Below are positions 6,548 through 7,954 of a stretch of DNA of 33,070 bases, one piece after another (position 1 is the stretch's first letter; each line of letters begins with the position of its first letter). The translations under genes were made by a program, and so were the position numbers. Location: the NCBI GenBank assembly GCA_043826085.1, contig JBDRQW010000046.1:1-33070 (forward strand), in the 5' to 3' direction. The notes under the pieces were generated by a model. It saw nothing but the letters and a program-made list of their open reading frames with translations, did no database searches and was not told the DNA's origin. This stretch comes from Candidatus Beckwithbacteria bacterium (GTDB lineage: Bacteria > Patescibacteriota > Microgenomatia > UBA1400 > CG1-02-47-37).

Positions 6548-7954
6548 ATGACGTCAAAAGAAATTAAAACTAAACCGCTTCAATTATTAACTTCTCAAAG
6601 AGAAATAAATAGATTTAATCTTAAGCCTGAACAGCCCTTATTTGCTTTAACTAGCGATGGAGGAATGGTTAAATCTCAAGATCCAAGAGTAAATTCTGTT
6701 GGAGAATTATTAACAAAGGTTGAAGATTTACTTCTTGAGCCAGAAGCAGTTTTTTGTGAAGAAATTTTATCTAGGATTTTAGATAAATCAACTAGTAGTG
6801 TTGCCAGACTAGAACCTCAGGCATTATTATCTCCACTTGAGTTTGAAGCTTACGTTTATAGATTTAAGAATGGTGGTGCTTATCTTAACCCAACACAGGA
6901 TTTTTATGCAGTTGTAGATGAAACAAAACTACCGGTGGCATATGGTTCAAGAAGCAGTCTATGCCCACCTATGGCAAATATTTCAATATTCAGTCAAAAA
7001 CTGATGAATATTCCAGACGAACCAGTCTGTACTGGAGGGGTTCAACCTTGTTTACGAAATGAGGTAATTTATGAACAGGAAAAAATCCGGTTCCCATGGT
7101 TTACCCAAACAGATATTGAACTAATAGCAATAACTTCACTTGACCAACAAGAGAATCAAGAAATTCTGTTAGATACCTATTCTTGCTATCAAATGATCAA
7201 AGCACTCGAATTAGCAGGTATTCCTAATAAAAGTATCGAAATTAGAATTAATAATTATATGCAAATTCTAAATAATGTTCTTGGAGATCAAGTCCCATGG
7301 TTAGAAAAAGAAATTTTTGGTTATCAATCACTTAATAATTTATCAGCCTTAAAAGCTGCTAGAAAAACAGAAACTGATGAGTATCGGATAGAACAAAAAC
7401 AATCCCTAAATAAATTATCTAATTTCTGTAAAAAGTTTGATGTTCCTGAAGAAGCTCAAGCATTTTTCTCAAATATAATCACTAAGGGTGGATATGATTT
7501 TTCTTGCCTATCTGATAATCCTGGAGAATCACCCGAAATAATAACAAATTTTAATTACATTGATGCAATCCAGGCTTACTTACGATTAATTACTACGTCA
7601 ACCTTGCTTAGAAATTTTTTCCCTGGAAGGCAAATATGTAAAATCGATCCACTTTCATATAGGGGAGGTTTTCCTGGTTATGACAAAACTACTATGCAAA
7701 TAGACGTTATTCTCCCAAACGATCAAGTAATGATAGAGGTTGGCGGTGGCGGAGCTTATCCGAATTCCCTGCAAACAGCGGCTGAAGTACTGGGTGATAG
7801 TTATTTAAATCAACCTCAATCCTATGCAGTTGGATTTGCTTTAGGTAATGCTCGTGTATACAGTGCAATGGAAAAGTTTTTACCATCACCACAAGTTAAT
7901 TCGACAGTTTCTGTTTTATCTTGGAATGAATTTCTAGAAGTATGCAACCAATAA
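6548..7954 (+). CDS. Degenerate class II aaRS-like protein (HisRS/HisZ-like catalytic core, no anticodon-binding domain)
   Basis: 468 aa, with the hisS product in this window as comparator:
- Motif-2-like: CLRNEVIYEQEKIRFPWFTQTDIELIA (aa 168-194) versus [24 protein letters not shown].
- DPLSYRGGFPGYD versus FIARGLAYYTG.
- Motif-3-like: VGGGGAYPN...YAVGFALGNARVY versus GCGRYDN...ATGGSFGIERIV.
The protein ends about 25 aa after motif 3. Confidence 0.6.
   Translation: MTSKEIKTKPLQLLTSQREINRFNLKPEQPLFALTSDGGMVKSQDPRVNSVGELLTKVEDLLLEPEAVFCEEILSRILDKSTSSVARLEPQALLSPLEFEAYVYRFKNGGAYLNPTQDFYAVVDETKLPVAYGSRSSLCPPMANISIFSQKLMNIPDEPVCTGGVQPCLRNEVIYEQEKIRFPWFTQTDIELIAITSLDQQENQEILLDTYSCYQMIKALELAGIPNKSIEIRINNYMQILNNVLGDQVPWLEKEIFGYQSLNNLSALKAARKTETDEYRIEQKQSLNKLSNFCKKFDVPEEAQAFFSNIITKGGYDFSCLSDNPGESPEIITNFNYIDAIQAYLRLITTSTLLRNFFPGRQICKIDPLSYRGGFPGYDKTTMQIDVILPNDQVMIEVGGGGAYPNSLQTAAEVLGDSYLNQPQSYAVGFALGNARVYSAMEKFLPSPQVNSTVSVLSWNEFLEVCNQ

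What the first reader, a model, noticed from the sequence alone, without database searches (positions are those of the whole stretch)
6548..7954. Orphan HisRS/HisZ-like paralog with the motif-3 arginine replaced and no anticodon-binding domain
Read by eye against the hisS product in the same window, the core signatures are all recognisable but degenerate:
- LRNE...IRFPWFTQTDIEL versus WRAE...[13 protein letters not shown] (motif 2).
- YRGGFPGYD versus ARGLAYYTG.
- GGGGAY...AVGFALGNARV versus GCGRYD...GGSFGIERI (motif 3).

The motif-3 Arg that contacts ATP in HisRS (GGGRYD) reads GGGGAY here. The protein stops about 25 aa after motif 3, so it cannot bind the tRNA anticodon stem in the usual way. 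About 100 N-terminal residues have no counterpart that I recognise.

HisZ is the only well-known protein with this architecture, and it works with a short HisG that is absent from this window. This suggests either a new partner for a histidine-sensing aaRS-like scaffold, or a tRNA-independent ligase.
Basis: partly seen in the sequence, partly recalled or inferred. Interest (0 to 1): 0.72.

Follow-up and report, generated by a model that had tools for sequence, protein, structure and literature searches.

The report
HisRS-derived enzyme in histidine operon
This gene encodes a very rare, highly diverged copy of histidyl-tRNA synthetase that has lost its tRNA anticodon-binding domain but kept its ATP-activating residues. 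It always sits in a histidine-controlled operon with histidine ammonia-lyase and an M20 hydrolase, which points to an undescribed histidine-related enzyme in candidate-phyla (CPR) bacteria.

Summary
The ORF at 6548-7954 (468 aa, here "X") is real. Profile-profile comparison (hhalign 98.8%, E 1e-16) and structure (AF2 pLDDT 89; all 50 top Foldseek hits are HisRS, HisZ or the GCN2 HisRS-like domain) show a HisRS-type class II catalytic core with no anticodon-binding domain.

The arginine that is missing lies in the HisRS-specific "GGRYD" motif (E. coli R287). The true motif-3 arginine (R311) is present as R436 and is invariant in all 16 family members. The equivalents of R113, E115, F125, Q127 and Y264 are also invariant, and those of E131 and R259 nearly so. 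The equivalents of E83, T85, R287 and D289, which both HisRS and HisZ keep, are lost.

X is not HisZ: it fails the HisZ model, and no hisG lies near it in any locus. The family is tiny, with 24 hits among 1.84 billion representative proteins. In 9 M20-type contexts X is followed by an M20 deacylase. A bona fide histidine ammonia-lyase lies upstream wherever the contig reaches that far, often with a ThrC-like PLP enzyme or a nitroreductase, a peptidase, and the true hisS.

Four loci carry a His-codon leader peptide plus terminator upstream (P about 4e-6).

Best reading: a tRNA-independent, adenylate-forming enzyme for an imidazole acid (urocanate or a histidine-like acid) in a histidine-starvation-induced module. 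The reaction itself is unknown.

The parts
4092..4119 (+). Promoter-like site (TTGACA-16-TATATT, 11/12) ahead of the operon leader
   Evidence: Consensus scan. The total number of promoter-like sites in the region is no higher than in shuffles, so this site is only suggestive.
4179..4256 (+). Candidate leader peptide MNKQNKILNSHHGPLLCGTGYFMLK with two adjacent His codons (4209-4214)
   Evidence: Equivalent HH/HHH-containing short ORFs lie upstream of the HAL gene in L010, L018 and L019. The chance of 4 or more of 5 regions having one is about 4e-6 by dinucleotide shuffles.
4286..4312 (+). Intrinsic-terminator-like hairpin CCCCCG-N8-CGGGGG followed by T6, 15 nt before the HAL start codon. G-rich 4229-4238 could pair with C-rich 4279-4292 as an antiterminator.
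   Evidence: The same layout (leader ORF, hairpin, U-run) is seen in L010, L018 and L019.
4327..5859 (+). Histidine ammonia-lyase (HutH type; MIO triad TSG; H83, N195, Y280, R283 and E414 equivalents present)
   Evidence: Pfam Lyase_aromatic 539 bits; TIGR01225 hutH 545.2 against cut-off 539.15; alignment to P. putida HAL 1gkm; motifs.
5866..6507 (+). Nitroreductase-superfamily flavoprotein (BluB / iodotyrosine-deiodinase-like branch). Related loci have a ThrC-like PLP enzyme in its place.
   Evidence: Replacement by PALP is seen in L005, L010, L019 and L020.
6501..6525 (.). Perfect 10-bp inverted repeat (GTCCTGATCC-TAACC-GGATCAGGAC) overlapping the nitroreductase stop codon, 22 nt before X
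   Evidence: No T-run follows on the + strand. Its role is unknown.
6548..7954 (+). X: HisRS-derived class II catalytic core without an anticodon-binding domain (the finding)
6950..6964 (+). R135-S-S-L-C139, aligned with HisRS R81-P-E83-G-T85. The Glu and Thr are replaced.
   Evidence: hhalign mapping and family table: no family member has Glu or Asp at the E83 position.
7034..7120 (+). Motif 2 (G163..C168-L-R170-N-E172...R181..F185-T-Q187...E191), corresponding to E. coli R113, E115, R121, F125, Q127 and E131, plus a family-specific invariant Cys168
7655..7705 (+). Stretch equivalent to the RGLDYY motif (HisA from memory): S370-Y-R372-GGFPG-Y378-D...Q384-I-D386, corresponding to R259 and Y264, plus family-specific invariant Q384 and D386
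7736..7762 (+). Strand E397-V-G-G-G-G-A403-Y-P405, aligned with HisRS T281..G285-G286-R287-Y288-D289. The Arg and Asp are lost, and E397 is a family-specific invariant.
7823..7867 (+). True class II motif 3: Y426-A-V-G-F-A-L-G-N-A-R436 plus helix. R436 corresponds to E. coli R311 and is invariant in 16/16.
7942..9024 (+). M20 (ArgE/DapE-type) di-metal amidohydrolase. Its start overlaps the end of X by 13 nt.
   Evidence: All metal and catalytic motifs (GHxDVV, GRGxIDMK, DEE, EES, YH) are invariant across 8 cluster M20s.
9028..9984 (+). M29-like aminopeptidase (weak match). L018 has an M24 peptidase in the equivalent place.
10112..11455 (+). Genuine histidyl-tRNA synthetase with anticodon-binding domain
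   Evidence: TIGR00442 374.8 bits against cut-off 286.75; Pfam tRNA-synt_His plus HGTP_anticodon. hisS also follows the cassette in L010, L018 and L026.

Best explanation
X founds a rare, CPR-restricted third lineage of HisRS-derived proteins, alongside HisZ and the GCN2 HisRS-like domain.

I propose that it is a catalytically active enzyme that does not use the tRNA anticodon. It binds ATP and an imidazole-bearing carboxylic acid and forms an acyl-adenylate. The acyl group is then passed to a non-tRNA acceptor. The product, or a precursor of the substrate, is handled by the M20 deacylase that is translationally coupled to X.

The part of the pocket that is conserved in every L-histidine-binding relative examined here, HisRS and HisZ alike, has been rebuilt. 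From memory, this part holds the alpha-amino group of histidine. A bona fide histidine ammonia-lyase heads the operon. The most economical substrate is therefore urocanate, or another histidine-like acid altered at the alpha position.

The whole module is preceded by a His-codon leader peptide and terminator. It should therefore be switched on when charged tRNA(His) is scarce, which implies that it serves histidine supply or homeostasis for the hisS often encoded at its end.

Shown: fold, homology, residue conservation, gene order, leader architecture.
Inferred: catalysis, substrate identity, acceptor, direction of regulation.
For: 1. Fold and homology:
- hhalign 98.8%, E 1.3e-16 to HisRS residues 99-318. 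A permissive run extends this to residues 14-332.
- AF2 pLDDT 89, pTM 0.91. All 50 top Foldseek hits are HisRS, HisZ or GCN2-HRSL, with E down to 6e-12.

2. Active-site conservation. The 16 family members share only 17-66% identity.
- Invariant in all of them: the equivalents of R113, E115, F125, Q127, Y264 and R311.
- Nearly invariant: the R121 position (R or K in all 16), E131 (E, with one D) and R259 (R, with one K).
- By contrast, 2 of 3 true HisZ sequences have lost R259.
- There are also family-specific invariant residues on the active-site sheet: C168, Q384, D386 and E397.

3. Lost positions:
- E83, T85, R287 and D289 are kept in the 5 HisRS and largely kept in the 3 HisZ examined, with only conservative or single exceptions.
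- None of the four is conserved in X.

4. Gene context, seen in independent and highly diverged loci.
- Nine M20-type contexts:
  - window
  - L001-3: HAL-NTR-X-M20
  - L004: X-M20
  - L005: PALP-X-M20
  - L008: HAL-X-M20-PALP
  - L009: HAL-X-M20
  - L010: HAL-PALP-X-M20-hisS
  - L018: HAL-X-M20-NTR-M24-hisS
  - L019: HAL-PALP-X-M20
- One truncated context: L020 is HAL-PALP-X and ends inside X.
- The code-25 loci L024 and L026 have X followed by an S66 peptidase, and L026 also has hisS.
- Sources.
- The X stop and the M20 start overlap, or are 1 nt apart, in 7 of 9 M20-type loci (coordinates in the same calls).
- All seven complete HALs (window, L001/L002, L008, L010, L018, L019) match Lyase_aromatic. 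The four scored against NCBIfam (window, L008, L010, L019) pass the hutH cut-off. The five aligned (window, L001, L008, L009, L010) keep H83 and E414.
- The M20s keep every catalytic motif.

5. Regulation:
- His-codon leader ORFs plus terminators lie upstream of HAL in 4 of 5 loci that have upstream sequence.
- P about 4e-6 by shuffling.
Against: - No biochemical data exist, and no acceptor (carrier protein, target protein or tRNA) is identifiable in the loci.
- HisZ, which is non-catalytic, also keeps several of the same residues: R113, F125 and Q127 in 3/3 and R311 in 2/3. Conservation alone therefore does not prove catalysis.
- Inducing a histidine-degrading lyase during histidine starvation is paradoxical unless HAL runs in reverse or acts on a conjugate. 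Its carboxylate-binding Arg (the R283 equivalent) is intact, which argues for free-acid substrates.
- The nitroreductase and PLP partners are unexplained.
- The most distant members lack HAL: P0008 next to a glycosyltransferase, P0016 near recBCD, and L026 with a PRTase-like and a LOG-like gene.
- The assignment of E83/T85 as alpha-amino ligands, and of R113/R259/R311 as phosphate ligands, is from memory of HisRS crystal-structure papers. The paper tools failed all session, so it could not be re-checked.
Confidence: 0.45

Rival explanations
1. X is a non-catalytic, ligand-sensing regulatory subunit, functionally analogous to HisZ. It binds histidine or urocanate (and perhaps ATP) and allosterically controls the M20 hydrolase, which is made in stoichiometric amounts by translational coupling, or HAL. 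This would tune how much free histidine is released or destroyed.
For: - There is precedent: HisZ is a HisRS core without an anticodon-binding domain that regulates a partner enzyme. L. lactis HisZ is the best or second-best structural match.
- X and M20 overlap or abut in 7 of 9 loci, as expected for subunits of one complex.
- The imidazole-contacting positions E131 and Y264 are kept.
- HisZ itself retains R113, F125, Q127 and often R311.
Against: - All ATP/adenylate residues, including R259, are conserved in 15 or 16 of 16 members at 17-66% identity. R259 is lost in 2/3 HisZ.
- New invariant Cys, Asp, Glu and Gln residues on the active-site sheet suggest altered chemistry rather than decay.
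- The positions kept by both L-His binders (E/D83, T85, GGRYD) are the ones that are lost.
Confidence: 0.25
2. X still acylates an RNA acceptor. It recognises the tRNA(His) acceptor stem through its catalytic domain and loads either histidine (as a starvation-induced auxiliary HisRS) or a precursor such as urocanate that is then converted on the tRNA. This would be analogous to the SepRS/SepCysS or GatCAB indirect pathways.
For: - From memory, HisRS identity rests mainly on the acceptor stem (G-1:C73) rather than the anticodon, so loss of the anticodon-binding domain need not abolish tRNA use.
- The cassette is linked to hisS in four lineages.
- It is preceded by a leader that senses tRNA(His) charging.
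- A PLP enzyme is a frequent neighbour.
Against: - The HisRS-invariant motif-2-loop positions Q118, G120 and R123 are not conserved in X. The loop is three residues longer in the window protein and in P0005, by my own count of the sequences.
- There is no anticodon-binding domain.
- E83 and T85 are lost.
- No tRNA gene lies in the window.
- An M20 deacylase has no obvious role on an ester-linked tRNA substrate.
Confidence: 0.08
3. The cassette is a countermeasure against inhibitors of HisRS (histidyl-adenylate mimics or histidine analogues). A drop in His-tRNA(His) would de-attenuate the operon. X would bind or modify the inhibitor as a decoy, the hydrolase (M20, or the MccF-related S66 enzyme in code-25 lineages) would cleave it, HAL would destroy the released analogue, and extra HisRS would be made.
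For: - The logic of the attenuator fits.
- The hydrolase partner is exchangeable between M20 and Peptidase_S66. From memory, S66 is the family of MccF, which cleaves aminoacyl-adenylate mimics.
- hisS lies downstream.
- X keeps an adenylate-shaped pocket.
Against: - I know of no HisRS-targeting natural product of this kind.
- The window's hisS looks like the housekeeping copy in a small genome.
- S66 is equally well an LD-carboxypeptidase.
- The invariant catalytic arginines are not needed for a decoy.
Confidence: 0.07
4. X is an ordinary, merely divergent HisZ that works with a short HisG encoded elsewhere in the genome.
For: - It has the same architecture, and its best structural matches include HisZ.
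- One relative (L019) gives a weak TIGR00443 hit, E 3e-6, 26 bits.
- The rest of the genome could not be searched.
Against: - X has no TIGR00443 hit at E <= 1. The window's real HisRS scores 166.7 bits on that model.
- No hisG was found among the annotated genes of the window or of the related loci examined. The true HisZ genes fetched as controls sit next to hisG or hisA.
- The E/D83-T85 and GGRYD positions kept by all three HisZ controls are lost.
- X is fixed next to HAL and M20 instead.
- From general knowledge, CPR genomes of this type usually lack histidine biosynthesis.
Confidence: 0.02

Closest known systems
Histidyl-tRNA synthetase (HisRS, class IIa; TIGR00442 / PF13393)
   Same: - Same catalytic-core fold, including the helical insertion domain.
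- Homologous by profile comparison.
- Equivalents of R113, E115, R121, F125, Q127, E131, R259, Y264, G285/G286, Y288 and R311 are present.
   Different: - No anticodon-binding domain.
- About 15% identity.
- Scores 24.9 bits against a 286.75-bit family cut-off.
- E83, T85, R287, D289, Q118 and R123 are not conserved.
- It has family-specific invariant C168, Q384, D386 and E397.
- The true HisRS is encoded separately about 2 kb downstream.
HisZ, regulatory subunit of short-form ATP phosphoribosyltransferase (TIGR00443)
   Same: - A HisRS core without an anticodon-binding domain.
- Top structural match, 1z7m/1z7n, with TM (normalised to the target) up to 0.70.
- Encoded next to, and probably working with, a partner enzyme.
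   Different: - Fails the HisZ model.
- No hisG nearby. Its neighbours are HAL and M20 instead.
- Keeps R259, which 2/3 HisZ controls lost.
- Loses E/D83, T85, R287 and D289, which HisZ keeps.
EpmA/PoxA (GenX), a LysRS-derived ligase that attaches beta-lysine to EF-P (comparison from memory)
   Same: - A class II aaRS catalytic core that has shed its anticodon-binding domain.
- Keeps adenylation chemistry.
- Uses a modified form of the ancestral amino acid, made by an enzyme encoded alongside: EpmB aminomutase there, an MIO-family lyase here.
   Different: - Different aaRS ancestor.
- No EF-P or other target is evident in any locus.
- The partner MIO enzyme scores as a lyase (hutH), not an aminomutase.
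- The resemblance is an analogy only and was not tested.
AsnA and amino-acid:[carrier-protein] ligases (other tRNA-independent class II aaRS paralogs; from memory)
   Same: Adenylate formation on an aaRS core, followed by transfer to ammonia or to a thiol or amine instead of tRNA.
   Different: - They derive from AspRS or SerRS.
- No carrier-protein gene is seen here.
- The acceptor is unknown.
Leader-peptide transcription attenuators of amino-acid operons (his and trp type; from memory)
   Same: A short ORF with adjacent codons for the regulatory amino acid, alternative G/C-rich pairings, and an intrinsic terminator just before the first structural gene.
   Different: - Only 2-3 His codons, against 7 in E. 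coli hisL.
- No match to any Rfam family.
- It controls an operon that begins with a catabolic-type enzyme (HAL) rather than a biosynthetic pathway.

Membership tests
Class II aminoacyl-tRNA synthetase catalytic-core superfamily | Antiparallel-sheet core with motif 2 (fRxE...F.Q) and motif 3 (GxGxGxxR), including their invariant arginines | tested here: met
   R170/E172/F185/Q187 and G429-x-A-x-G433-x-x-R436 align with HisRS motifs 2 and 3 and are invariant in the family. The fold is confirmed.
Histidyl-tRNA synthetase (HisRS) | Scores above the curated family threshold (TIGR00442 286.75 bits; PF13393) | tested here: not met
   24.9 bits, E 9e-6 on TIGR00442. No Pfam hit at E <= 1.
Histidyl-tRNA synthetase (HisRS) | C-terminal anticodon-binding domain (HGTP_anticodon) | tested here: not met
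   The protein ends 32 residues after motif 3. There is no PF03129 hit. The model shows only one short C-terminal helix. The next gene is M20.
Histidyl-tRNA synthetase (HisRS) | HisRS-specific histidine-pocket signatures: RPEGT (E83, T85) and GGRYD (R287, D289) | tested here: not met
   The aligned residues are S137, C139, A403 and P405. No family member has an acidic residue at the E83 position or Arg at the R287 position.
Histidyl-tRNA synthetase (HisRS) | Aminoacylates tRNA(His) | not testable with these tools
   Needs an acylation assay. The motif-2-loop positions Q118 and R123, invariant in the HisRS set, are not conserved in X.
HisZ (ATP-PRT regulatory subunit) | Scores above the curated threshold of TIGR00443 (271.65 bits) | tested here: not met
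   No hit at E <= 1 for X. Relative L019x scores only 26.4 bits.
HisZ (ATP-PRT regulatory subunit) | Partnered with a short-form hisG, usually adjacent or in a his operon | tested here: not met
   No hisG was found among the annotated genes of the window or of the related loci. Control HisZ genes lie next to hisG or hisA. The rest of the genome could not be searched.
HisZ (ATP-PRT regulatory subunit) | Retains the L-histidine pocket (E/D83, T85, GGRYD) | tested here: not met
   D83, T85, R287 and Y288 are kept in all 3 HisZ controls, and D289 in 2 of 3. E83, T85, R287 and D289 are lost throughout the X family; Y288 is mostly kept.
tRNA-independent aaRS-like ligases (EpmA, AsnA, aa:CP-ligase type) | Adenylation residues intact, no anticodon-binding domain, and transfer to a non-tRNA acceptor | tested here: inconclusive
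   The first two features are met. The acceptor and the catalysis cannot be tested with these tools.
Leader-peptide attenuator | Short ORF with tandem regulatory codons, mutually exclusive hairpins, and an intrinsic terminator upstream of the first gene | tested here: met
   Seen in the window, L010, L018 and L019. Enrichment P about 4e-6. The thresholds were chosen after seeing the window's leader, and function has not been tested.

The most novel reading that the evidence does not exclude
The HAL-X-M20 cassette is an ATP-driven histidine salvage route in histidine-auxotrophic CPR bacteria that runs histidine ammonia-lyase backwards.
- When His-tRNA(His) falls, the attenuator opens.
- X adenylates scavenged urocanate and couples it to a carrier: an amine or thiol, or conceivably the tRNA(His) acceptor end.
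- HAL aminates the conjugate. Ammonia might come from the ThrC/dehydratase-like PLP enzyme or from the flavoprotein.
- The M20 deacylase releases L-histidine for the hisS encoded at the end of the operon.

This would be the first physiological use of an MIO lyase in the amination direction, and a new job for an aaRS paralog.
Probability: 0.12. Interest if true: 0.9.

Novelty: new variant of a known kind. Interest (0 to 1): 0.64.

Why it matters
Repurposed aminoacyl-tRNA synthetase cores (HisZ, EpmA/PoxA, AsnA, GCN2) are textbook cases of enzyme evolution, and each one uncovered an unexpected pathway.

This family is a further HisRS-derived lineage, with three unusual properties:
- It keeps the adenylation machinery while rebuilding the part of the pocket that both HisRS and HisZ conserve.
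- It is locked into an operon with histidine ammonia-lyase and an M20 deacylase.
- It appears to be controlled by a histidine attenuator.

It occurs in candidate-phyla bacteria with minimal metabolism. How these organisms obtain amino acids is an open question.

If X is a ligase, it defines new histidine/urocanate chemistry. If the operon does make histidine from urocanate, it would change how auxotrophy is inferred from CPR genomes.

The hypotheses are directly testable with three small recombinant proteins.

Tried and rejected
- Pfam on X gave no hit at E <= 1.
- PDB sequence search with the 4-sequence profile returned only a spurious coiled-coil match.
- PDB sequence search with the 14-sequence profile returned only marginal SerRS and HisRS hits, E 0.03-0.04.
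- BLASTP of X against the window's HisRS was not significant.
- The word-indexed homolog search found only 3 relatives. With the wider profile it added only P0013.
- The genome-contig scan found 2 loci and the metagenome scan 3. A first metagenome attempt failed because no stretch was conserved enough.
- Rfam found nothing in the window at gathering thresholds. In the L018 leader it found only far-sub-threshold hits.
- No tRNA genes lie in the window.
- Ordinary HisZ was rejected (see the membership test).
- MIO aminomutase instead of HAL (an EpmB-like analogy) was rejected. The four cluster MIO enzymes scored against NCBIfam exceed the hutH equivalog cut-off and fall far below the aminomutase cut-offs, and the aligned ones keep H83 and E414.
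- A decaying pseudo-enzyme is unlikely, because about 24 positions, nearly all of them in the core motifs, are invariant across 17-66% identity.
- The literature could not be consulted. Seven paper runs and one paper reading failed. Statements about residue roles in HisRS, about MccF and EpmA, and about attenuation logic are therefore from memory.
- Model coordinates are not exposed by the tools, so distances between the new invariant residues and the ligand site could not be measured.
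Full report

The window has a 468-codon ATG-to-stop ORF at exactly 6548-7954 on the + strand. I call its product X.

Standard searches barely see it:
- Pfam gives no hit at E <= 1.
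- NCBIfam gives only TIGR00442 (hisS) at E 9e-6 and 24.9 bits, against a family cut-off of 286.75, over residues 167-453.
- BLASTP against the window's own HisRS (10112-11455) is not significant.

Deeper methods are unambiguous:
- A 14-sequence family profile aligns with a HisRS profile at 98.8% probability, E 1.3e-16. In a permissive run the alignment covers X 50-457 against E. coli HisRS 14-332.
- AlphaFold2 models have pLDDT 78 with 4 sequences and pLDDT 89, pTM 0.91 with 14 sequences.
- Foldseek returns only HisRS, HisZ and the GCN2 HisRS-like domain among the top 50 PDB matches, with E down to 2e-12.

There is no anticodon-binding domain. The chain ends 32 residues after motif 3, and the next gene is a peptidase.

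**2.

I fetched E. coli hisS and numbered the alignment from it.
- GGGRYD carries R287. From memory, this is the HisRS-specific 'HisB' motif.
- The class II motif-3 arginine is R311, in GFAMGLER.
- In X, R287 is indeed replaced (A403). R311 aligns with R436 (GFALGNAR), which is invariant in all 16 family members examined.

The ATP site is therefore not degenerate in the way claimed. The '100 unmatched N-terminal residues' shrink to about 40-50 once the diverged motif-1 region is aligned.

**3. The family**

The family is extremely rare.
- The word-indexed search of 5.8 billion proteins found three relatives, at 53, 39 and 46% identity.
- An exhaustive HMMER search of 1.84 billion cluster representatives found only 24 proteins at E <= 1e-3. 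About 17 of them share the family signatures.
- Members share 17-66% identity.
- One MAG is labelled Candidatus Dojkabacteria.
- Two members (L024, L026) only make sense under genetic code 25, where UGA encodes Gly: every 'W' at a conserved Gly position becomes Gly. That places them in Gracilibacteria/Absconditabacteria.
- The window itself looks like a small CPR-type chromosome, with ribosomal proteins, RF-1, SSB, several aaRS genes, toxin-antitoxin pairs and 36% GC.

**4. Active-site anatomy**

I mapped the family onto E. coli HisRS numbering with hhalign. I compared it with 5 HisRS sequences and 3 genuine HisZ sequences fetched as controls: Priestia (next to hisG), Monoglobus (next to hisA) and Azospirillum.

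| Position (E. coli HisRS) | Residue in X | Conservation in the X family |
|---|---|---|
| R113 | R170 | 16/16 |
| E115 | E172 | 16/16 |
| R121 | R181 | R or K in all |
| F125 | F185 | 16/16 |
| Q127 | Q187 | 16/16 |
| E131 | E191 | E, with one D |
| R259 | R372 | R, with one K |
| Y264 | Y378 | 16/16 |
| G285/G286 | G401/G402 | conserved |
| Y288 | Y404 | mostly kept |
| R311 | R436 | 16/16 |
| E83 | S137 | replaced (S/T/K/W) |
| T85 | C139 | replaced (C/W/F...) |
| R287 | A403 | replaced (A/S/C/F/D/I/E) |
| D289 | P405 | replaced |
| Q118, G120, R123 (motif-2 loop) | - | not conserved |

- The positions replaced in every member are kept in the HisRS and HisZ controls, with only conservative or single exceptions.
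- New family-specific invariants lie on the same sheet: C168 (in place of M111, two residues before the motif-2 Arg), Q384 (E270), D386 and E397.
- Two of three HisZ controls have lost R259.

From memory of the HisRS-adenylate structures, which I could not re-check because the paper tools were down:
- R113, R259, R121 and R311 hold the ATP phosphates.
- F125 stacks on the adenine.
- E131 and Y264 hold the imidazole.
- E83 and T85 hold the alpha-amino group.

On that reading, X keeps its ATP and imidazole sites and has rebuilt the alpha-amino sub-site.

**5. Genomic context**

X is not an orphan. In the window the + strand reads as follows:
- HAL (4327-5859)
- nitroreductase-family flavoprotein (5866-6507)
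- X (6548-7954)
- M20 ArgE/DapE-type hydrolase (7942-9024, overlapping X by 13 nt)
- M29-like aminopeptidase (9028-9984)
- true hisS (10112-11455)
- EamA transporter (11463-12365)

The same core recurs in loci whose X proteins are only 21-55% identical to the window's:

| Locus | Gene order |
|---|---|
| L001-L003 (Dojkabacteria MAG) | HAL-NTR-X-M20 |
| L004 | X-M20 |
| L005 | PALP-X-M20 |
| L008 | HAL-X-M20-PALP |
| L009 | HAL-X-M20 |
| L010 | HAL-PALP-X-M20-hisS |
| L018 | HAL-X-M20-NTR-M24 peptidase-hisS |
| L019 | HAL-PALP-X-M20 |
| L020 | HAL-PALP-X (contig ends) |
| L024 (code 25) | PALP-X-S66 |
| L026 (code 25) | PRTase-like, LOG-like, X, S66, hisS, cysS |

- X and the M20 gene overlap, or are 1 nt apart, in 7 of 9 M20-type loci.
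- All seven complete MIO enzymes (window, L001/L002, L008, L010, L018, L019) match Pfam Lyase_aromatic. The four I scored against NCBIfam (window, L008, L010, L019) pass the hutH equivalog cut-off and fall far below the aminomutase cut-offs. The five I aligned (window, L001, L008, L009, L010) keep the imidazole-specific H83 and E414.
- The eight cluster M20s are 37-62% identical to the window's and keep every metal and catalytic motif. Their closest solved relatives are an uncharacterised M20 (2rb7), ArgE and DapE.
- The PLP enzyme is ThrC/threonine-dehydratase-like.
- The flavoprotein is nearest the BluB / iodotyrosine-deiodinase branch.
- The most distant members sit elsewhere: P0008 beside a glycosyltransferase, and P0016 near recBCD.

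**6. An unexpected regulatory clue**

Upstream of the window's HAL gene are, in order:
- a near-consensus promoter-like site (4092-4119);
- a 25-codon ORF, MNKQNKILNSHHGPLLCGTGYFMLK (4179-4256);
- a GC hairpin followed by T6 (4286-4312), 15 nt before the HAL start codon.

L010 (MFKLTSQHHAHILPERRG), L018 (...LRGLNHHHNN) and L019 (MDQFNDKKNYFNEVHHALPLAGLPNM) have the same layout, each with a strong hairpin and U-run. L019 shows a textbook four-segment arrangement: CCUGCC / GGCGGGG / CCCCGCC / GGCGGG + U5.

- In dinucleotide shuffles, the chance that such a region contains an ORF of 8 or more codons with adjacent His codons is 0.004-0.09 across the five regions.
- Four or more of five regions having one has P about 4e-6. 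The criteria were set after I had seen the first example.
- The L001/L002 locus lacks a leader and has a Trp_repressor-family gene in its place.
- No Rfam family matches.

By the classical logic of leader-peptide attenuation (established knowledge), stalling at His codons frees the antiterminator. The operon should therefore be transcribed when charged tRNA(His) is scarce. That argues that the module serves histidine supply or homeostasis rather than simple disposal of excess histidine.

**7. Most likely mechanism**

I commit to the following, at confidence 0.45. X is an active, anticodon-independent, adenylate-forming enzyme for an imidazole-bearing acid. The substrate is most simply urocanate, which is the product or substrate of the co-encoded HAL and lacks the alpha-amino group. 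The reaction is coupled to the M20 deacylase, within a histidine-starvation-induced module.

- Shown: fold, ancestry, residue pattern, synteny, translational coupling, leader architecture.
- Inferred: catalysis, substrate, direction of regulation.
- Unknown: the acceptor, and the roles of the PLP and flavin enzymes.

Rival readings:

| Rival | Confidence | Main point |
|---|---|---|
| HisZ-like non-catalytic sensor subunit for M20 or HAL | 0.25 | Favoured by precedent and gene coupling; disfavoured by the strict conservation of R259/R311 and by the new invariant residues |
| RNA-acylating enzyme, including a pretranslational route | 0.08 | See rival explanations |
| Counter-measure against HisRS inhibitors | 0.07 | Suggested by the MccF-family S66 partner and by the attenuator |
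| Ordinary HisZ | 0.02 | See membership test |

The paradox that a histidine-destroying lyase is induced by histidine starvation is unresolved. The boldest resolution is ATP-driven reverse HAL salvage of urocanate to histidine. It is thermodynamically coherent only if HAL acts on a conjugate, or if the product is channelled, and I give it about 0.12.

**8. Comparison with known families and novelty**

X works most like the tRNA-independent aaRS paralogs (EpmA/PoxA, AsnA, amino-acid:carrier-protein ligases). Structurally it is closest to HisZ and HisRS. It fails the tested membership criteria of both HisRS and HisZ: model thresholds, domain architecture, pocket signatures and the hisG partnership.

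I therefore file it as a new variant of a known kind: a new HisRS-derived paralog family with a new conserved operon.

**9. Limits**

- No literature could be consulted, because all paper calls failed.
- Residue roles are from memory.
- Only fragments of the source genomes were available, so the absence of hisG or hutU genome-wide is untested.

Noticed in passing
window 4092-4326; L010 6377-6552; L018 5878-6310; L019 4340-5057: Short leader ORFs with 2-3 adjacent His codons, each followed by an intrinsic terminator, lie just upstream of the HAL gene that heads the operon. This looks like a histidine attenuator on an operon that starts with a catabolic-type enzyme. Enrichment against shuffles is P about 4e-6.
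   Followed up: yes
L024 917-2221 and L026 1607-2839 (proteins P0022, P0020): These family members show Trp at every conserved Gly position (WWW for GGG). They read correctly only with genetic code 25 (UGA = Gly), so they come from Gracilibacteria/Absconditabacteria. In them the hydrolase after X is a Peptidase_S66 (LdcA/MccF family) instead of M20.
   Followed up: partly
L010 11462-12793: The genuine HisRS next to the cassette in L010 lacks the motif-3 Glu-Arg (GFGLGDVTL instead of GFxxGxER) while keeping all other catalytic residues. This is unusual for a presumably essential class II synthetase.
   Followed up: no
window 10112-11455: The window's own HisRS is atypical at conserved signatures: LKYEVM for LRPEGT, GCGRYD for GGGRYD and GGSFGIER for GFxxGxER. 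It still scores well above the hisS threshold.
   Followed up: no
window 6501-6525: A perfect 10-bp inverted repeat with a 5-nt loop overlaps the nitroreductase stop codon, 22 nt upstream of X. No T-run follows on the coding strand. It could be an mRNA processing or stability element, or a protein-binding site.
   Followed up: no
window 4327-5859 (residues 145-147): The MIO-forming triad of the HAL is Thr-Ser-Gly rather than the usual Ala-Ser-Gly, and position 82 is Ala rather than Ser. The L001 and L009 HALs share these features. L008 has SSG and L010 has ASG.
   Followed up: partly
L018 6192-6310: About 120 nt of GC-rich sequence with strong predicted structure (two long hairpins) lies between the leader terminator and the HAL start codon. 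It has no credible Rfam match and could be a second regulatory RNA.
   Followed up: partly
L026 124-1573: In the code-25 locus, X is preceded by a type I phosphoribosyltransferase-like protein (weak PF00156 match) and a LOG/'LDcluster4' protein. This recalls the HisZ-PRTase pairing but involves unrelated PRTase families.
   Followed up: no
L011 526-2958 and downstream: The distant family member P0008 sits next to a GT1 glycosyltransferase weakly similar to cytosylglucuronate synthase. TIR/ThsB, phage-sheath-like and pentapeptide-repeat genes are nearby. This is a different context, which suggests the wider family has more than one role.
   Followed up: no
window 3805-4071, 24147-24833, 31733-32466: ParE-like toxin ORF directly upstream of the operon leader. 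IS200-like (Y1) transposase. PIN/MazE toxin-antitoxin pair.
   Followed up: no
L001 231-575 and L002 144-488: The Dojkabacteria locus has no His leader. A Trp_repressor-family (PF01371) gene lies immediately upstream of HAL and may be an alternative regulator of the same cassette.
   Followed up: no
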